A stretch of DNA of 64,000 nt, taken from the sequence record PV806337.1, one strand, 5' to 3'. This DNA is from a phage. A program made the position numbers and the translations under genes. The notes beneath the pieces were generated by a model. That model had not been told where the DNA came from, did no database searches, and saw only the letters and a list, made by a program, of their open reading frames with translations. Shown here piece after piece: positions 20,923 through 32,921 of this stretch (its first letter is position 1; every line of letters begins with the position of its first letter).

Positions 20923-20994
20923 GCCGTCCTAGTATAATTGGTATTATCAAGCCGTAACTGGTGGAAGATGTAGGTTCGAATCCTACGGTCGGTA
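20923..20994 (+). tRNA. tRNA-like gene, anticodon unresolved
   Basis: Canonical T-arm GTAGG-TTCGAAT-CCTAC followed by acceptor 3' strand; 5' acceptor pairs with one mismatch; no clean anticodon stem found by eye. Confidence 0.35.
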
Positions 20995-25201: not shown

Positions 25202-25279
25202 GGTTCTCAAGCTCATATGGTATGAGCACCCGGCTCATAACCGGAAGGTACGTAGGTTCGAATCCTCGGGGAGCCACCA
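25202..25279 (+). tRNA. tRNA with CAT anticodon (Met/fMet/Ile2 type)
   Basis: Acceptor GGTTCTC/GGGAGCC, D-stem GCTC/GAGC, anticodon loop CTCATAA, T-loop TTCGAAT with weak T-stem, CCA. Confidence 0.5.
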
Positions 25280-27003: not shown

Positions 27004-27078
27004 GCACCTTTAGCTGAGATGGATTAGCGCTTGCCTGAAGAGCTTGAGAGGTTGGATCGTTACCAACGGGGTGCTCCA
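27004..27078 (+). tRNA. tRNA-Phe-like (anticodon GAA), atypical
   Basis: Acceptor GCACCTT/GGGGTGC, anticodon loop CTGAAGA, non-canonical T-loop ATCGTTA, CCA; anticodon stem has two U-U mismatches. Confidence 0.45.
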
Positions 27079-29108: not shown

Positions 29109-29230
29109 CAAAATTTCAGTGCAGAACACGGAGCTAGCAATTCGGAAGTGCTGACTCATGATAAGCTGCCTATGTACTTGCGAAGCGGTCGTGTCCAAGA
29201 CTCGGACTCTTGCACTGAAAACAATCAAAC

Positions 29231-29352
29231 ATTCTAGCGTGGTTGATGGGGAAACCAGCTTGGCGAGGGCAGAAGCTCGTTCGATTCGAGTGAAAGAATG
29301 GTTCTCGTAAGTCCGCACAAGTGATAACAGGTTCGAGTCCTGTCTAGAATGA
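29231..29352 (+). ncRNA. 122-nt tRNA-like structured RNA (acceptor-like helix, D-arm, two T-arm hairpins)
   Basis: ATTCTAG (29231-29237) pairs perfectly with CTAGAAT (29346-29352); D-arm TGGT/ACCA; T-arm hairpins GCTCG-TTCGATT-CGAGT and ACAGG-TTCGAGT-CCTGT; no CCA; no ORF. Confidence 0.3.
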
Positions 29353-29500
29353 CACTATAAAGTTTACTTATTATGTAGGTTCCGATAGACCGGCGGGTCT
29401 ATTCTGGCATTTAAGAGAGGTCTCGCAAACTTCTTTGTCAGCCGTGGGGTTGGTAGCCTCCAGGTGGCCTACACAATAAGTAAATTTATTAAAAATTCAT

Positions 29501-29529
29501 TTGCTATTCTGCTTTATTATCTGTATAAT
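29501..29529 (+). promoter_or_regulatory. T5-type promoter
   Basis: TTGCTA 29501-29506, 17 bp, TATAAT 29524-29529. Confidence 0.7.
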
Positions 29530-29561
29530 ATATTTTATAAAGTGAAGAGAAGGAAAGCAAA

Positions 29562-29720
29562 ATGAAACACAAGATAGCTCAAGTTTTTATGGCATTATGG
29601 TGTATACCAATAGCTATAACAGCATTTAATCTAGATACTTTTACTATAGAAGAAAAATGTATCGGATTAGTTAGCGGTTTTATTATGCTGGGCTTATCTT
29701 TGCTGTGGTTAAAGAACTAA
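29562..29720 (+). CDS. small membrane protein
   Basis: 52-codon frame after promoter 29501-29529 and GAGAAGGAAAG RBS; hydrophobic. Confidence 0.45.
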   Translation: MKHKIAQVFMALWCIPIAITAFNLDTFTIEEKCIGLVSGFIMLGLSLLWLKN

Positions 29721-29724
29721 TATT

Positions 29725-29802
29725 CTCCGTGTAGCTCAGTTTGGCCAGAGCGTTTCGTTTGGGGCGATAGGGTCGGGGGTTCAAATCCTCCCACGGAGAC
29801 CA
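29725..29802 (+). tRNA. tRNA-Pro (anticodon TGG)
   Basis: Acceptor CTCCGTG/CACGGAG, D-arm GCTC/GAGC, anticodon loop TTTGGGG, T-loop TTCAAAT, CCA. Confidence 0.7.
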
Positions 29803-29808
29803 AACAAT

Positions 29809-29886
29809 TGCGGGTTAGATCTCTGGTAGAGATCGCTAGTCTCATAAGCTAGAAAGAGGTAGGTTCGATTCCTGCACCCGCTTCCA
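29809..29886 (+). tRNA. tRNA with CAT anticodon (Met/fMet/Ile2 type)
   Basis: D-arm GATC/GATC, anticodon stem CTAGT/GCTAG, loop CTCATAA, T-loop TTCGATT, CCA. Confidence 0.7.
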
Positions 29887-29906
29887 CTTTAATAGAGGAT
29901 TTCGAA

Positions 29907-30074
29907 ATGAAAGTATTTCGATTAGTAGTAAGTGACAAACGTTTAGGTAAGAATACCTCAAAATCCTTACTTGCTCATTATGGAAAAGATGAGAAAGAAG
30001 TAATGGCGGAGTTTGGGATTAATCACCCTTACTTGAAAGTTCACTCTATTAAAGAAGTATATAATGGTTACTAA
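29907..30074 (+). CDS. hypothetical small protein
   Basis: 55-codon frame read by eye between tRNA-CAT and tRNA-Lys. Confidence 0.4.
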   Translation: MKVFRLVVSDKRLGKNTSKSLLAHYGKDEKEVMAEFGINHPYLKVHSIKEVYNGY

Positions 30075-30075
30075 T

Positions 30076-30154
30076 AGATCGCTAGCTCAATAGGTTTAGT
30101 AGCATCCGACTTTTAATCGGAAGGTTCTGGGTTCGAGTCCCAGGCGATCTACCA
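30076..30154 (+). tRNA. tRNA-Lys (anticodon TTT)
   Basis: Acceptor AGATCGC/GCGATCT perfect, anticodon stem TCCGA/TCGGA, loop CTTTTAA, T-loop TTCGAGT, CCA. Confidence 0.8.
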
Positions 30155-30172
30155 ATTTCAAGAAAAACGCAG

Positions 30173-30201
30173 TTGCTTGATGCTTAATTTCTTGTTATAA
30201 T
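30173..30201 (+). promoter_or_regulatory. T5-type promoter driving ORF-free segment and tRNA-Ala
   Basis: TTGCTT 30173-30178, 17 bp, TATAAT 30196-30201. Confidence 0.7.
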
Positions 30202-30438
30202 ATTTATATAAATTGATGAGGAGAAATCCTCATCATAGTTCACTAAGGTATTAGCTCGACCTAGGACTGGCTACCAAAAAGCACGATCCCTACGATTTGG
30301 AGAAGTTCTAGATTAGTCCACTAGATTCAGCGGCAACTGAATAGTGTATTGGGTTTGCGAGATGACGCAGTTCCTTCCGCTCGAAGCGAAGGTGCTGTAG
30401 TTACGCCGAGCTAATAGCCTTAGTAAACTAAAGAATTT

Positions 30439-30517
30439 GGGGGATGGGTCTGCTAGGGGTGGACACCTCACTTGCACCGAGGACATCAGAACGATTCGAA
30501 TTCGTTATCCTCCACCA
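30439..30517 (+). tRNA. tRNA-Ala (anticodon TGC)
   Basis: Acceptor GGGGGAT/ATCCTCC, D-stem GTCT/GGAC, anticodon loop CTTGCAC, T-arm AACGA-TTCGAAT-TCGTT, CCA. Confidence 0.6.
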
Positions 30518-30522
30518 AATAC

Positions 30523-30599
30523 GCGTGATTGATGGAATTGGCATACATACCGTCCTTAGAAGTCGGGTTTTGAGGGTTCGAATCCCTTGTCACGCACCA
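30523..30599 (+). tRNA. tRNA with TAG anticodon (Leu by anticodon) but short variable arm
   Basis: Acceptor GCGTGAT/GTCACGC, anticodon loop CTTAGAA, T-arm GAGGG-TTCGAAT-CCCTT, A73, CCA; 5-nt variable region. Confidence 0.5.
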
Positions 30600-30724
30600 A
30601 ATTTGATGGTCAGAGTAAATTAAACCTACTATCTCGGTTGAGCTGTTTTAATGGGTTCGAATCCCAGCGAGGCGTAACTGCCTGGTGTGATAGAGGCATC
30701 ATTCCACTAACATTGGAAAAACTA

Positions 30725-30955
30725 ATGAAACGAAAATTAAAAAAGTCTTATATAATTAAGATAAATAAGCTACGAAGTAGGGCAAAAGGATGGCCACTTC
30801 GAATATTAATTGCGGATAACCATACTAGATACCATGCGGAACAACGTCATTACAAACAGTGGGAGTCATACTGCCGCTCAAAAGCAGGTCGTTTAGATGG
30901 ATCTTATGAGTTTCTATTTGGTAAGAAGCCTACTAGAGTAGCTTTAGGTAATTAA
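30725..30955 (+). CDS. small basic protein
   Basis: In-frame ATG inside track ORF 30587-30955; upstream part carries a tRNA T-arm-like motif. Confidence 0.4.
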   Translation: MKRKLKKSYIIKINKLRSRAKGWPLRILIADNHTRYHAEQRHYKQWESYCRSKAGRLDGSYEFLFGKKPTRVALGN

Positions 30956-30959
30956 TACT

Positions 30960-31050
30960 TGGAAGAGCAAATCGAATTGGCGACGAAAACCGCTTGGAAA
31001 GTGGCTGACTGGTAAAACGGCTTGAGAGTTCAAATCTCTCCTCTTCCGCC
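30960..31050 (+). tRNA. tRNA-Ser (anticodon GGA)
   Basis: Anticodon loop TTGGAAA, long variable arm, T-arm GAGAG-TTCAAAT-CTCTC, acceptor 3' CTCTTCC, CCA. Confidence 0.6.
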
Positions 31051-31062
31051 AAACAATTTATA

Positions 31063-31157
31063 TGGTAGGTCAATCCAATGGCTGGCGTGGGACTCCGACT
31101 TGAAATCGGTTGATCGTAGTGATACGGTGTAAGGGTTCGATCCCCTTACCTACCTCC
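31063..31157 (+). tRNA. tRNA-Ser (anticodon TGA)
   Basis: Acceptor GGTAGGT/ACCTACC perfect, anticodon stem CCGA/TCGG, loop CTTGAAA, long variable arm, T-loop TTCGATC, CCA. Confidence 0.7.
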
Positions 31158-31523
31158 AAATCTTGAAGTATGCCGGAATCGGTAGACGGGGCTGCCTAAA
31201 AGGTTTATAGGGAACATCCACTCCCTGCAACATACCTCATAAAGCGGCTGAGATAAATGGTCTATCTCGTGAAGGTTCAAGTCCTTCTGCTTCTTGATAT
31301 ATCTATGGCTCAAAGTGTAACGGTGCTATTTGATGCTCTTAGTAAGACTTTCCCGACATGCGTTCGGGAGTAAGCTGCTAAGGCTAGAGTAGAAGAGTTT
31401 CGGAGAGCCGCCACAATTGAAAATTCGTACTCGTCTTGAGCTGCGCGCAATAGGAGATAACTTGATTAGTATTCTAGAACATGCTAATTGAGGATGGTTT
31501 CGCTAACCCTGCGAGTTTTCAAT

Positions 31524-31600
31524 TGTGGCTATATCATAATTGGTTAATGATCCTGATTGTGAATCAGGCCTATGTGGATTCGAATTCCACTAGCCACCCC
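31524..31600 (+). tRNA. tRNA-His (anticodon GTG)
   Basis: Acceptor GTGGCTA/TAGCCAC, D-arm TCAT/ATGA, anticodon stem CCTGA/TCAGG, loop TTGTGAA, T-loop TTCGAAT, CCA. Confidence 0.8.
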
Positions 31601-31626
31601 AAATTAACTTAAACAGGAAATAAAAT

Positions 31627-31821
31627 ATGGCTGATTTCTGCAAACAATGCTCCATTGATATGTGGGGCAGAGATACTGGTGATCTTTCTGGTTTGATTAC
31701 AGAAGCTGAAGTTAAAGAAGGCTACGGTGCAGTTGTAGTTTGCGAAGGCTGTGGAGTTATTCGAGTAGATCATGAAGGCAAACGTTTAGAAGAACCTGGG
31801 CCAACTACTCTAATTCCATAG
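31627..31821 (+). CDS. putative zinc-ribbon small protein
   Basis: ORF track 64 aa; CKQC ... CEGC pairs. Confidence 0.55.
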   Translation: MADFCKQCSIDMWGRDTGDLSGLITEAEVKEGYGAVVVCEGCGVIRVDHEGKRLEEPGPTTLIP

Positions 31822-31833
31822 AGTAATAATTAT

Positions 31834-31909
31834 TGGGATGTAGATCAATTGGCAGATCGTCGGCCTCTGACTCCGAAGGTTCCACGTTCGATCCGTGGCA
31901 TCCCAGCCA
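31834..31909 (+). tRNA. tRNA-Gln (anticodon CTG)
   Basis: 76 nt; U1-A72, G73, anticodon positions 34-36 CTG, T-loop TTCGATC, CCA. Confidence 0.8.
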
Positions 31910-31915
31910 AACAAT

Positions 31916-31991
31916 TGGAGAGTAGTGTAACGGTTAGCACAACGGCCTTTGACTCCGTTAATGGTAGGTTCGATTCCTCCTTCTCCAGCCA
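31916..31991 (+). tRNA. tRNA-Gln (anticodon TTG)
   Basis: 76 nt; U1-A72, G73, D-stem GTGT/GCAC, anticodon loop CTTTGAC, T-loop TTCGATT, CCA. Confidence 0.8.
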
Positions 31992-31999
31992 AATAATAA

Positions 32000-32075
32000 G
32001 CGGTTAAGCACACGGGTTGTGTCGCAGGCCTTCCAAGCCTCGCTGAGTAGGGTTCGATTCCCTCTAGCCGCTCCA
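32000..32075 (+). tRNA. tRNA-Gly (anticodon TCC)
   Basis: Acceptor GCGGTTA/TAGCCGC, anticodon loop CTTCCAA, T-loop TTCGATT, U73, CCA. Confidence 0.8.
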
Positions 32076-32091
32076 ACTTTAAGGAAATGTT

Positions 32092-32313
32092 ATGCACGTT
32101 TTTGAGTTTCGTAATAAAAATACTGATAAGCGAGTTATCATTATTGGAGAAACATACCGAGCATATGAACAAACTGACGGCTCTGTTATCTTGAATGATG
32201 AGAAAGGAGGTTTTAGCTTTTATCCAGAAGAACCTTATGAAGAGTTTCGTACTAAGTTTCTTTTACCAGACTGGCTAGCAGTAGCTGAGCAACGAGAATC
32301 CGAAGATGGCTGA
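32092..32313 (+). CDS. hypothetical protein
   Basis: ORF track 73 aa. Confidence 0.5.
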   Translation: MHVFEFRNKNTDKRVIIIGETYRAYEQTDGSVILNDEKGGFSFYPEEPYEEFRTKFLLPDWLAVAEQRESEDG

Positions 32314-32470
32314 TAACCTAAAATTAAGGGTCGACAAACAAAAGAAATACATTGAGGTTGAATTAGGCGAAGAACGCTTAAAGCTAACTTTCGAGTTTCT
32401 TCAGCAGTTGGCAATGACAGTTATGACTGATAAGTCTCCTGTTATTGAAAAAGAAATCCCGTTGAAATAA
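32306..32470 (+). CDS. hypothetical small protein
   Basis: 54-codon frame overlapping previous stop. Confidence 0.4.
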   Translation: MADNLKLRVDKQKKYIEVELGEERLKLTFEFLQQLAMTVMTDKSPVIEKEIPLK

Positions 32471-32478
32471 CGGGTTCT

Positions 32479-32553
32479 GCTCCTAAAGCATTGCTGGCGA
32501 TGCAGTTGCCTTGTAAGCATCTGAACCGGGTTCGATTCCTGGTGGGAGCACCA
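32479..32553 (+). tRNA. tRNA-Thr (anticodon TGT)
   Basis: Acceptor GCTCCTA/TGGGAGC, D-arm GCAT/ATGC, anticodon loop CTTGTAA, T-loop TTCGATT, CCA. Confidence 0.75.
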
Positions 32554-32568
32554 AATTTAAAAATTCAT

Positions 32569-32597
32569 TTGCCTTCTCTCTTATTTCTTGTTATAAT
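32569..32597 (+). promoter_or_regulatory. T5-type promoter
   Basis: TTGCCT 32569-32574, 17 bp, TATAAT 32592-32597. Confidence 0.65.
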
Positions 32598-32627
32598 ATT
32601 TATATAAATTAATGAGAGGGAAACCAA

Positions 32628-32921
32628 ATGAAACGTTATCTTTCTGTAGTATTTCAAACTGGTGGTCAAAGATATACCTATGAATTTCCTAACTCTTGGA
32701 AAATCAAAGAAGGTGATCAAGTTGTTGTGTTAACACCACGTGAAGGATATAAAGTAGTAACTGTTAAACAAGTATTCCCAAAAGATCATGAACCAGCTAA
32801 AGGCATTTGCTATAAGATGATTCATGGTGTAGTTCGTCAAGTACCACGAGCGGAAGTCGAAATCAAAATAGATAAAGATGGTAAACTTAAATACACCTCC
32901 TGCTTAGACGAGTTGCTATAA
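32628..32921 (+). CDS. hypothetical protein
   Basis: ORF track 97 aa after promoter 32569-32597. Confidence 0.55.
   Translation: MKRYLSVVFQTGGQRYTYEFPNSWKIKEGDQVVVLTPREGYKVVTVKQVFPKDHEPAKGICYKMIHGVVRQVPRAEVEIKIDKDGKLKYTSCLDELL

What the first reader, a model, noticed from the sequence alone, without database searches (positions are those of the whole stretch)
31158..31523. ORF-free segment with an orphan T-arm hairpin between tRNA-Ser and tRNA-His
About 365 nt without an ORF contains GAAGG-TTCAAGT-CCTTC (about 31270-31290), a canonical T-arm, preceded by an anticodon-arm-like hairpin GAGATA-AATGGTC-TATCTC. No acceptor-stem partner is evident. It could be a decayed tRNA, a D-arm-less tRNA-like RNA, or part of a larger structured RNA.
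Basis: seen in the sequence. Interest (0 to 1): 0.55.

Follow-up and report, generated by a model that had tools for sequence, protein, structure and literature searches.

The report
Known phage T5 tRNA-like stable RNAs
The "orphan" T-arm belongs to RNA1, a complete tRNA-shaped RNA of T5-like phages that cannot decode; it is followed by two more small stable RNAs, all already annotated in phage T5 and all still without a known function.

Summary
The window comes from a T5-like phage. The ORF-free interval is 91.5% identical to a stretch of phage T5 (AY543070) that is annotated as three stable RNAs. These are RNA1 ("tRNA-like stable RNA with unknown functions"), RNAI and RNAIII, followed directly by tRNA-His.

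An acceptor partner exists, and so does a D arm. The hairpin called "anticodon-like" is in fact a long variable arm.

RNA1 (31162-31306) is a full Leu-like cloverleaf. Its 7-nt anticodon loop is replaced by a 48-nt helical module with an invariant ACAUCCAC loop, and it has no encoded CCA. Across 31 distinct homologues, 96% of cells pair and 15 of 38 pairs show compensatory changes, so it is conserved rather than decaying. The apparent anticodon differs between lineages, so it does not decode.

RNAI is a rod-shaped hairpin ending in GCCA. RNAIII is a spacer hairpin whose 18-bp base helix is conserved while its interior is swapped between lineages. Its T5-annotated ends leave a 2-nt 3' overhang, which is the geometry RNase III produces.

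Function is unknown, and a published T5 deletion spanning the locus is viable. Large phages carry tRNA-like RNAs of the same design with different inserts. Verdict: already known, moderate interest.

The parts
31064..31158 (+). tRNA-Ser(UGA), upstream neighbour; ends in an encoded CCA
   Evidence: ARAGORN. The homologue is annotated tRNAS1 in T5.
31162..31306 (+). RNA1: tRNA-like stable RNA (145 nt here, 144 nt in T5)
   Evidence: Mapped from the T5 AY543070 rna1 feature by alignment. Covariance model R1 scores 179.7 bits and finds a single copy in the window.
31165..31170 (+). RNA1 acceptor helix, 5' strand (GAAGUA). It pairs with 31288-31293 (UGCUUC). The helix continues through U.U mismatches to 31160-31162/31296-31298, and no CCA follows.
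   Evidence: the count of structure pairs helix 1: 92% of cells paired, 6 of 9 pairs changed on both sides.
31173..31189 (+). RNA1 D arm, Leu type (CCG-GAAUCGGUAGA-CGG), preceded by U8 G9
   Evidence: The stem and G18 G19 are invariant in 31 sequences. RNAalifold prefers an alternative local hairpin, and covariation does not decide between the two.
31191..31248 (+). RNA1 elongated anticodon arm. Anticodon stem 31191-95/31244-48; helix P2 31201-04/31234-37; apical hairpin 31208-13/31222-27 with invariant loop ACAUCCAC 31214-21. This 48-nt module replaces a 7-nt anticodon loop.
   Evidence: Helices 3-5: 8 of 15 pairs changed on both sides. Loop columns are invariant except one A/G position. ARAGORN -i reads the module as a 40-41-nt 'intron', with the anticodon varying between lineages.
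31250..31268 (+). RNA1 long variable arm (GAGAUA-AAUGGUC-UAUCUC).
   Evidence: Helix 6: 100% paired, A-U / U-A / C-G exchange at one pair. The loop is nearly invariant.
31271..31287 (+). RNA1 T arm (GAAGG-UUCAAGU-CCUUC).
   Evidence: Helix 7: 100% paired. T-loop motif statistics.
31307..31413 (+). RNAI: 107-nt rod-like hairpin closed by GGCUC/GAGCC, with a single-stranded 3' GCCA
   Evidence: Mapped from the T5 rnaI feature. Both ends are conserved, while the middle differs between Tequintavirus and Epseptimavirus types and still forms hairpins.
31410..31427 (+). 5' strand of an 18-bp base helix that pairs with 31512-31529. It encloses the RNAI 3' GCCA and tRNA-His G-1 to C4.
   Evidence: MFE fold. 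A base helix of 13-21 bp is predicted around five unrelated interiors of 43-148 nt, with a compensatory change in phage DU_PP_V.
31418..31523 (+). RNAIII: 106-nt spacer hairpin lying between RNAI and tRNA-His
   Evidence: Mapped from the T5 rnaIII feature. The annotated 5' end U31418 pairs with A31521 and the 3' end is U31523, giving a 2-nt 3' overhang (read from the sequence; inference).
31525..31601 (+). tRNA-His(GUG) with encoded G-1 and CCA, downstream neighbour
   Evidence: ARAGORN and Rfam.

Best explanation
SHOWN. The interval is the RNA1-RNAI-RNAIII cluster of small stable RNAs of T5-like phages. The T-arm belongs to RNA1, a complete cloverleaf derived from a tRNA-Leu-like gene. It has an acceptor helix, U8, a D arm, a long variable arm, a T arm and all the nucleotides that form the tRNA elbow. 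Its anticodon loop is replaced by a conserved 48-nt helical module. No CCA is encoded, and the acceptor helix continues beyond position 1/72. It therefore cannot read a codon.

INFERRED. The three RNAs are transcribed with the neighbouring tRNAs as one precursor and cut out by host enzymes. RNase P or RNase E would cut at G31307. RNase III would cut both strands of the 18-bp base helix to release RNAIII and free the 5' end of tRNA-His. Exonucleases would then trim RNAI back to its CCA.

MOST LIKELY MECHANISM FOR RNA1. The tRNA body serves as a processing and stability scaffold. The inserted module, with its invariant ACAUCCAC loop, is the working part and is recognised by a host or phage factor. 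RNA1 would then be a tRNA-shaped decoy or adaptor acting in trans, and accessory rather than essential. RNAIII is most likely a processing by-product, of which only the base helix matters.

Confidence by step:
- Identity and anatomy: about 0.95.
- Non-decoding: about 0.9.
- Processing scheme: about 0.5.
- Trans-acting scaffold-plus-payload role: about 0.5.
- Specifically an anti-defence decoy: about 0.15-0.2.
For: Identity:
- The interval is 91.5% identical to T5, where it is annotated rna1, rnaI and rnaIII. The BF23 record carries the same annotation.

Structure:
- In 31 distinct sequences, 96.1% of cells pair, against 38-49% when the 3' partners are slid by 1-3 columns.
- 15 of 38 pairs change on both sides.
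- 0 of 500 shuffles reach the observed covariation score. RNAalifold agrees except for the D arm.

Leu-like origin:
- After RNA1 itself, the best hits of model R1 in the window are the phage's own tRNA-Leu(UAA) at 30.6 bits and tRNA-Leu(UAG) at 20.7 bits.

Not decoding:
- ARAGORN finds a cloverleaf only when introns are allowed. The 'anticodon' is then AAA, UAA or AAC depending on the lineage, and the 'intron' position shifts.
- Public records label it tRNA-Leu (JLBYU40), tRNA-Phe (JLBYU43), a hypothetical protein, or nothing.
- CCA is encoded after the neighbouring tRNAs read here (both tRNA-Ser, tRNA-His, both tRNA-Gln) but not after RNA1.

Selection:
- The RNA1 core is the only part alignable with Klebsiella Sugarlandvirus phages, at 81% identity with unrelated flanks.
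- It is present in about 500 phage records.
- The 8-nt apical loop is invariant apart from one A/G position.

Processing:
- The units abut, with gaps of 3, 0, 4 and 1 nt.
- The base helix is kept around five unrelated interiors.
- The T5-annotated RNAIII ends leave a 2-nt 3' overhang (plus the sequence).

Recurring design:
- T5 RNA2, at window 29231-29351, is a second tRNA-like RNA with a 48-nt insert.
- A family of 170-192-nt elements in large phages and in cyanophage S-CRM01 has the same layout, with 28 of its 43 predicted pairs showing compensatory changes.

Accessory role:
- The viable T5 mutant T5123 (deletion 29191-32442) appears to span the locus, which lies at 30284-30644 in AY543070 (PMC11464382).
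Against: - There are no expression or end-mapping data for this phage. I could not read the papers behind the T5 annotation, so the experimental basis of the annotated ends is unverified. The RNase III argument depends on those ends.
- No binding partner or target was found. Complements of the conserved loops do not recur in the window beyond chance. Matches to E. coli rRNAs are at chance level.
- Outside T5-like phages the apical loop is not conserved. A payload-only model built from the large-phage family does not find the RNA1 insert. The payload is therefore lineage-specific, and the kinship of the two families rests on the scaffold. That evidence is partly circular, because those elements were retrieved using RNA1's own D-arm pattern.
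- In the PARIS study the rescuing plasmid carried Fragment 1 (31885-32870), which lies outside the RNA1 locus. RNA1 is therefore not what rescued infection in that experiment.
- Stable accumulation is also what an inert tRNA-shaped by-product would show.
Confidence: 0.6

Rival explanations
1. Cis-acting processing element only. RNA1, RNAI and RNAIII exist to fold the polycistronic precursor so that host RNases release the neighbouring tRNAs correctly, especially tRNA-His with its G-1. The stable RNAs are leftovers with no activity of their own.
For: The units abut each other and the tRNAs. The base helix enclosing tRNA-His G-1 to C4 is kept while the RNAIII interior is replaced or shrunk to 43 nt. 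The middle of RNAI is likewise swapped. The locus appears dispensable in the laboratory.
Against: A folding aid does not need an invariant 8-nt apical loop, nor covarying helices inside the insert. In Klebsiella phages RNA1 is kept without RNAI, RNAIII or an adjacent tRNA-His. Most tRNAs in the same cluster manage without such elements.
Confidence: 0.2
2. Decaying tRNA pseudogene: a tRNA-Leu gene inactivated by an insertion and drifting without function.
For: It resembles tRNA-Leu, lacks a usable anticodon loop and CCA, and sits in a dispensable, mosaic region.
Against: 96% of cells pair, with 15 compensated pairs, across lineages whose flanks no longer align. The element is retained in about 500 genomes from three genera plus a Pectobacterium phage.
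Confidence: 0.08
3. A genuine intron-containing tRNA (Leu or Phe, as some GenBank records label it) that is spliced, receives CCA and is charged.
For: ARAGORN -i and the annotation pipelines behind JLBYU40 and JLBYU43 call it a tRNA with an intron. T5 itself retains CUUAAAA next to the 3' strand of the anticodon stem.
Against: The inferred anticodon and intron position differ between lineages. At 41 nt the insert is far too small for a group I intron, and no Rfam family matches the region at E up to 10. From general knowledge, bacteria have no splicing endonuclease for such an insert. Position 1:72 is a U.U mismatch, the discriminator is U, and no CCA is encoded.
Confidence: 0.03
4. The interval encodes small proteins, as many phage records annotate 'hypothetical protein' there.
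For: ORFs of 27-55 aa overlap the interval, and several deposited genomes annotate CDSs there.
Against: The curated T5 and BF23 annotations have no CDS there. Substitutions come as compensating pairs in helices, not in a codon pattern. Indels and module swaps between lineages are not compatible with one conserved reading frame across the interval.
Confidence: 0.03
5. One larger RNA of about 365 nt, such as a tmRNA or permuted tmRNA, which has a similar size and a T arm.
For: The size is close to that of a tmRNA and a T arm is present.
Against: ARAGORN's tmRNA search finds nothing. Rfam gives no tmRNA or other match at E up to 10. The three modules occur independently in homologues. There is no G3.U70 pair and no tag reading frame.
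Confidence: 0.02

Closest known systems
Phage T5 / BF23 genes rna1, rnaI, rnaIII (GenBank AY543070, NC_042564)
   Same: Direct homologues: 91.5% identity over the interval, with the same order tRNA-Ser(UGA) - RNA1 - RNAI - RNAIII - tRNA-His. This is the same thing.
   Different: T5 and BF23 have a 57-aa ORF (T5.063 in T5) between tRNA-Ser and RNA1, which this phage lacks. There are a few compensated substitutions and a 1-nt indel in the insert.
Phage T5 RNA2 ('tRNA-like stable RNA', window 29231-29351) and RNA3
   Same: Same design in the same gene cluster: acceptor, D arm and T arm, a 48-nt insert in the anticodon arm, and no CCA.
   Different: No detectable sequence relation to RNA1; model R1 does not hit it. 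It has a short variable region and a different insert.
Phage T4 species 1 and species 2 RNAs (rnaC 139 nt, rnaD 119 nt)
   Same: Small stable RNAs of unknown function at the end of a phage tRNA cluster. rnaC has a T arm, a variable-arm-like hairpin, a long arm in place of the anticodon arm, and a terminal helix with tandem U.U mismatches. The DNA right after the annotated rnaD reads CCA, like the end of RNAI.
   Different: No homology is detectable with models R1 or R2. rnaC has no recognisable D arm.
tRNA-like elements with large anticodon-arm inserts in large phages and in cyanophage S-CRM01 (unannotated; found here)
   Same: Leu-type D arm, retained anticodon stem, inserted helical module, long variable arm, T arm, no CCA, and location inside tRNA clusters. 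The structure has 28 compensated pairs of 43. A model built from them scores RNA1 at 51.8 bits, against 24 bits or less for the true tRNAs of the window.
   Different: The inserts are 60-80 nt with other conserved motifs. A payload-only model does not find the RNA1 insert. The shared D arm is partly an artefact of how they were retrieved.
Engineered 'tRNA scaffold' RNAs, in which a payload is inserted in the anticodon stem for stable expression in E. coli (from general knowledge, not tested here)
   Same: The architecture is identical. An intact tRNA body gives processing and nuclease resistance, and the payload replaces the anticodon loop.
   Different: Those are artificial and carry CCA. RNA1 is natural, lacks CCA and has an extended terminal helix.
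tmRNA tRNA-like domain, bacterial YrlA (Y-RNA-like) and mascRNA (general knowledge)
   Same: Non-decoding RNAs that keep the tRNA elbow and are handled by tRNA-processing enzymes.
   Different: tmRNA and YrlA lack the anticodon arm altogether or are circularly permuted. No Rfam family, tmRNA included, matches the region.

Membership tests
T5 RNA1 (rna1) tRNA-like stable RNA | Sequence homology to the annotated T5/BF23 rna1 gene | tested here: met
   86% identity over RNA1 and 91.5% over the whole interval to AY543070. The rna1 features are listed.
T5 RNA1 (rna1) tRNA-like stable RNA | Position between tRNA-Ser(UGA) and RNAI/RNAIII/tRNA-His | tested here: met
   same order, with the units abutting.
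T5 RNA1 (rna1) tRNA-like stable RNA | Accumulates as a discrete stable RNA in infected cells | not testable with these tools
   Only the wording of the GenBank note is available. The primary papers are not in the library.
Canonical decoding tRNA | Cloverleaf with acceptor, D and T arms and the elbow nucleotides | tested here: met
Canonical decoding tRNA | 7-nt anticodon loop with an anticodon conserved among orthologues | tested here: not met
   A 48-nt module replaces the loop. ARAGORN -i gives AAA, UAA or AAC depending on the lineage.
Canonical decoding tRNA | Recognised by standard tRNA detectors | tested here: not met
   ARAGORN default mode and Rfam RF00005 give no call, even at E up to 10.
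Canonical decoding tRNA | Single-stranded 3' NCCA (encoded, as in the neighbouring tRNAs read here) and a paired 1:72 | tested here: not met
   The sequence after the acceptor strand is UUGAUAUAUC. Position 1:72 is U.U in 28 of 31 sequences, and the helix continues beyond it. Post-transcriptional CCA addition cannot be excluded.
Decaying tRNA pseudogene | Uncompensated substitutions that erode the stems | tested here: not met
   96.1% of cells pair and 15 pairs are compensated.
tmRNA (standard or permuted) | tRNA-like domain with a G3.U70 pair, a tag reading frame and pseudoknots; detection by ARAGORN or Rfam | tested here: not met
   (-m) find none. Position 3:70 is A-U or G-C.
Group I intron-containing tRNA-Leu(UAA) | Self-splicing intron with a catalytic core (about 200 nt or more) in the anticodon loop | tested here: not met
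   The insert is 40-41 nt. No Rfam family, intron families included, matches at E up to 10.
T4 species 1 RNA (rnaC) | Detectable homology in sequence or structure | tested here: not met
   Models R1 and R2 give no hit on rnaC. Only the layout is similar.
RNase III-excised spacer hairpin (applies to RNAIII) | Long uninterrupted double helix at the base | tested here: met
   An 18-bp helix, 31410-31427 with 31512-31529. A base helix is kept in all five spacer types.
RNase III-excised spacer hairpin (applies to RNAIII) | Product ends staggered with a 2-nt 3' overhang | tested here: inconclusive
   The overhang holds for the ends annotated in T5 and BF23, but I could not check how those ends were determined.
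RNase III-excised spacer hairpin (applies to RNAIII) | Cleavage depends on host rnc | not testable with these tools
   Needs Northern blots or end mapping in an rnc mutant.

The most novel reading that the evidence does not exclude
RNA1 may be the founding, overlooked example of a widespread class of phage RNAs. In this class a tRNA-Leu-like body, processed and stabilised by the host's tRNA machinery, displays a lineage-specific module in place of the anticodon loop. Other candidates are T5 RNA2, the 170-190-nt elements of large phages and cyanophage S-CRM01, and possibly T4 species 1 RNA. Such RNAs would act in trans on a tRNA-binding host factor. One example would be an uncleavable decoy that blocks tRNA-targeting immune nucleases; another would be a modulator of tRNA processing or translation. 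That would be an RNA-based counterpart to the phage tRNAs already known to defeat such defences.
Probability: 0.18. Interest if true: 0.8.

Novelty: already known. Interest (0 to 1): 0.38.

Why it matters
The element itself is not new.

What remains open is its function. About 500 T5-like genomes keep a perfectly folded tRNA look-alike that cannot decode. Most deposited genomes either leave it blank or mislabel it as tRNA-Leu, tRNA-Phe or a hypothetical protein.

T5 tRNAs have recently been shown to neutralise tRNA-cleaving defences (PARIS, retron Ec78). A conserved non-cleavable tRNA mimic in the same cluster is therefore a cheap, testable candidate for a further layer of that conflict.

The analysis here supplies three things an experimenter would need:
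- a covariation-backed structure for RNA1;
- a processing model for the cluster;
- evidence that other tRNA-rich phages carry RNAs of the same design.

Tried and rejected
- **Rfam.** At gathering thresholds, and at E up to 10 on 30900-31650, there is no family for any of the three RNAs. The same holds for the Klebsiella and GSW6 loci.
- **tmRNA.** ARAGORN finds none.
- **Antisense targets.** Complements of the apical loop and of the variable-arm loop do not recur in the window above chance.
- **rRNA mimicry or pairing.** The apical loop shares ACAUCCAC with 16S rRNA and is complementary to GGAGUGGA in 23S rRNA. However, 17% of shuffled loops give a match of 9 nt or more, so this is chance level.
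- **Bacterial genomes.** A pattern scan of one genome per species gave 4 hits, a number I calculated to be no more than chance would give. None of those sites matched model R1, so RNA1 appears to be phage-specific.
- **Homology of the RNA1 insert with the large-phage inserts.** A payload-only model found nothing in the window, even with filters off.
- **T4 rnaC as a homologue.** No hit.
- **RNAI as a cloverleaf.** ARAGORN -i finds nothing and the fold is a rod.
- **Literature.** The original T5 RNA papers and Glukhov et al. 2018 are not in the library.
- **Promoters and terminators.** The consensus scan shows no + strand promoter between 29501 and 32569. The only + strand 'terminators' in the interval are the T arm and an RNAIII hairpin, both taken to be false positives.

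Full report
**Context.** The window is a T5-like phage (Tequintavirus). The region 30900-31650 is 98.5% identical to Escherichia phage HildyBeyeler and Salmonella phage Tennessee. It lies in the phage's tRNA cluster: ARAGORN finds 21 tRNAs on the + strand and Rfam 23. The finding's interval, 31159-31524, sits between tRNA-Ser(UGA) at 31064-31158 and tRNA-His at 31525-31601.

**The observation.** GAAGG-TTCAAGT-CCTTC is at 31271-31287 and GAGATA-AATGGTC-TATCTC is at 31250-31268. Only ORFs of 55 aa or fewer overlap the interval. The T-loop motif GGTTCRANTCC occurs 21 times in the window against 0.16 expected, always on the + strand of the tRNA region, so this is a tRNA-type T arm and not a chance hairpin.

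The statement that no acceptor partner exists is wrong. GAAGUA (31165-31170) pairs with UGCUUC (31288-31293). It is followed by U8 G9 and a Leu-type D arm, CCG-GAAUCGGUAGA-CGG. The hairpin called "anticodon-like" is the long variable arm of a type-II cloverleaf.

**What it is.** A blastn search with the 366-nt interval finds 500 phage records. In the curated phage T5 record AY543070 the homologous stretch, at 91.5% identity, carries three misc_RNA features followed directly by tRNA-His:
- rna1, 144 nt, "tRNA-like stable RNA with unknown functions";
- rnaI, 107 nt, "stable RNA with unknown functions";
- rnaIII, 106 nt, same note.

The BF23 tRNA-region record has the same three features. Mapped onto the window, the layout is:

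| RNA | Window coordinates |
|---|---|
| RNA1 | 31162-31306 |
| RNAI | 31307-31413 |
| RNAIII | 31418-31523 |
| tRNA-His, starting at G-1 | from 31525 |

The whole interval is therefore filled by three abutting, previously described RNAs. The T5 record lists further such species in the same cluster: RNA2, RNA3, RNA2H and RNAIV.

**Anatomy of RNA1.** I collected 31 distinct homologues from Tequintavirus, Epseptimavirus, Klebsiella Sugarlandvirus and Pectobacterium phage DU_PP_V. I then counted pairs for the cloverleaf I had read from the sequence.
- 96.1% of cells form standard pairs, against 38.6-48.7% when the 3' partners are slid by 1-3 columns.
- 15 of the 38 pairs change on both sides.
- None of 500 column shuffles reaches the observed covariation score.

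RNAalifold recovers the same helices on its own, except that it prefers a local hairpin for the D region. That stem never varies, so covariation cannot decide between the two.

From 5' to 3' the structure is:
1. A terminal helix of 6 bp, extended through U.U mismatches by 2-3 more pairs. In the Klebsiella phages it is fully paired over about 13 bp.
2. U8 G9.
3. The D arm, with invariant G18 G19.
4. A 5-bp anticodon stem.
5. In place of the 7-nt loop, a 48-nt module: an A-rich internal loop, a 4-bp helix, a second internal loop, and a 6-bp hairpin. The hairpin's 8-nt loop, ACAUCCAC, is invariant apart from one A/G position.
6. A 6-bp variable arm with a nearly invariant loop.
7. The T arm, with invariant UUC and A58.

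No CCA follows. CCA is encoded after the neighbouring tRNAs read here (both tRNA-Ser, tRNA-His and both tRNA-Gln).

**Is it a tRNA?** ARAGORN in default mode and the Rfam tRNA model do not call it. With introns allowed, ARAGORN calls a complete cloverleaf with a 40-41-nt "intron" in all six lineages tested. The anticodon, however, is AAA in this phage, Sepoy, GSW6 and the Klebsiella phage; UAA in T5; and AAC in DU_PP_V. The intron position shifts as well. Public records label it accordingly as tRNA-Leu, tRNA-Phe, a hypothetical protein, or nothing.

An anticodon that is not conserved, a U.U pair at 1:72, a U discriminator and no CCA all argue that RNA1 does not decode. It is not a pseudogene either, because its helices are maintained by compensation. 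It is also the only part of the interval still alignable with the Klebsiella phages, at 81% identity with unrelated flanks.

Its scaffold is most like the phage's own tRNA-Leu genes. After RNA1 itself (179.7 bits), model R1's best hits in the window are tRNA-Leu(UAA) at 30.6 bits and tRNA-Leu(UAG) at 20.7 bits.

**RNAI and RNAIII.** RNAI folds as a rod closed by GGCUC/GAGCC, with a free 3' (G/A)CCA. About 20 nt at each end are conserved. The middle differs completely between the Tequintavirus and Epseptimavirus types but forms hairpins in both. It is not a cloverleaf.

RNAIII is a spacer hairpin. Its interior comes in five unrelated versions, with spacer lengths of 43, 78, 121, 132 and 148 nt. 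In every version an uninterrupted base helix of 13-21 bp is predicted, and DU_PP_V shows a compensatory change in it. In this window the helix is 18 bp, 31410-31427 with 31512-31529. It contains the GCCA end of RNAI and G-1 to C4 of tRNA-His.

With the ends annotated in T5 and BF23, the RNAIII 5' nucleotide (U31418) pairs with A31521 and its 3' end is U31523. That is a 2-nt 3' overhang on both cuts, the signature of RNase III. This step is an inference, and I could not verify how those ends were determined.

It suggests the following scheme. RNase III excises RNAIII. This leaves RNAI with a 4-nt tail that exonucleases trim back to CCA. It leaves tRNA-His with a 1-nt leader. RNase P or RNase E cuts at G31307, which at once defines the RNA1 3' end. 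RNAIII would then be a by-product of which only the base helix matters.

**Function.** None is known, and I found no direct clue.
- Complements of the conserved loops do not recur in the window.
- 8-nt identities or complementarities with E. coli 16S and 23S rRNA are at chance level.
- The element is absent from one genome per bacterial species.

The viable T5 mutant T5123 carries a deletion of 29191-32442, which appears to span the locus at 30284-30644. Only the plasmid-borne Fragment 1 (31885-32870), which lies outside the RNA1 locus, is reported to rescue that mutant on PARIS-carrying cells (PMC11464382; coordinates). RNA1 is therefore accessory in the laboratory and is not what rescued infection in that experiment.

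Several things remain to be explained: the intact tRNA elbow, the covarying helices inside the insert, the invariant apical loop, and retention in about 500 genomes. The reading that fits them best treats the tRNA body as a scaffold for processing and stability, and the insert as a module recognised by some factor. That makes RNA1 a trans-acting tRNA mimic. I put about 0.5 on this, about 0.2 on a purely cis-acting processing role, and less than 0.1 each on a pseudogene or a real tRNA.

**A recurring design.** The window holds a second example. T5 RNA2, at 29231-29351, has an acceptor helix, a D arm, a T arm, a 48-nt insert and no CCA.

A scan of IMG/VR with RNA1's D-arm pattern, followed by model R1, found further cases inside the tRNA clusters of 80-519-kb phage contigs. 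These are 170-192-nt elements with the same layout. A homologue lies in an unannotated gap of cyanophage S-CRM01. Their structure has 28 compensated pairs of 43. They have no consistent anticodon and no Rfam match.

A model built only from these elements scores RNA1 at 51.8 bits, against 24 bits or less for the true tRNAs of the window. Part of that score is circular, because the elements were seeded with RNA1's D arm. A payload-only model does not find the RNA1 insert. The design and scaffold are therefore shared, but the inserts are not.

T4 species 1 RNA (rnaC) has a comparable layout but no detectable homology.

**Verdict.** The finding is real but already known. It is the RNA1-RNAI-RNAIII cluster of T5-like phages. 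The open question is what the mimic does.

Noticed in passing
window 29231-29351 (+): A second tRNA-like RNA with a 48-nt insert in the anticodon arm, an 8-bp acceptor helix, a T arm at 29326-29344 and no CCA. It is found only by ARAGORN with introns allowed and a lowered threshold ('tRNA-Arg(ccg) i(34,48)'). By its position in the gene order it appears to correspond to T5 gene rna2, annotated 'tRNA-like stable RNA with unknown functions'.
   Followed up: partly
L130:878-1049, L133:8200-8373, L148:5938-6129, L111:2474-2649(-), L095:1663-1835, L170:13875-14063, L165:3638-3810, L174:3953-4128(-), L154:5024-5193(-), L157:791-962(-); L178:1484-1655 (S-CRM01): An unannotated family of 170-192-nt tRNA-like RNAs, absent from Rfam, in the tRNA clusters of large phages and of Synechococcus phage S-CRM01. 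They have a Leu-type D arm, a 60-80-nt structured insert replacing the anticodon loop, a long variable arm with a conserved loop, a T arm and no CCA. 28 of 43 pairs are compensated. The insert is unrelated to that of T5 RNA1.
   Followed up: partly
L114:604-742(-); L104:1288-1408(-) = L126:397-517; L110:3094-3208; L107:11142-11290(-) = L118:2646-2794; L046:1296-1429(-): Further viral tRNA-like genes with inserts of 17-40 nt, or an 11-nt anticodon loop, that standard ARAGORN misses. L114, from a 276-kb contig, resembles RNA1 of the Klebsiella phages in its acceptor and T arm and has a GGU/ACC helix in the insert.
   Followed up: no
window 30961-31050, 30439-30517, 32000-32075; also 20923-20994, 25202-25276, 27004-27075: Real tRNAs that ARAGORN's default mode misses. 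Homologues of tRNA-Ser(GGA), tRNA-Ala(UGC) and tRNA-Gly(UCC) are annotated in T5 and HildyBeyeler; Ala and Gly are recovered at a relaxed threshold. Three more are called only by Rfam. The cluster therefore holds more tRNAs than the 21 listed.
   Followed up: partly
window 30654-30664, inside ORF 30587-30955 (122 aa): A T-loop motif (TGGGTTCGAATCCCA) just downstream of tRNA-Leu(UAG), inside a 122-aa ORF. T5 has the HNH endonuclease gene hegC (TflI) between tRNA-Leu and tRNA-Ser at this place. The motif could be a tRNA remnant or a truncated endonuclease locus.
   Followed up: no
L008:941-1057 and L019 (GSW6-type Epseptimavirus): In some Salmonella phages about 115 nt of unrelated, strongly structured sequence is inserted between RNA1 and RNAI. 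S130/S131/S116-type phages show two-piece matches, suggesting other insertions. The RNA cluster is a mosaic hot spot.
   Followed up: no
L007:549-1140 (Klebsiella phage K7_rec14, Sugarlandvirus): RNA1 lies in the middle of a ~590-nt stretch that looks non-coding despite short annotated CDSs. The stretch follows tRNA-Ile/Met/Val, ends in a terminator-like hairpin and has a promoter-like sequence just after it. It holds several other hairpins but no RNAI, RNAIII or tRNA-His.
   Followed up: no
L095:1545-1653: Immediately upstream of the large-phage tRNA-like element there is a weak tmRNA-model match (28.4 bits, below the gathering score of 47). It overlaps an ARAGORN 'tRNA-Ala' call and may be another non-canonical tRNA-like gene.
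   Followed up: no
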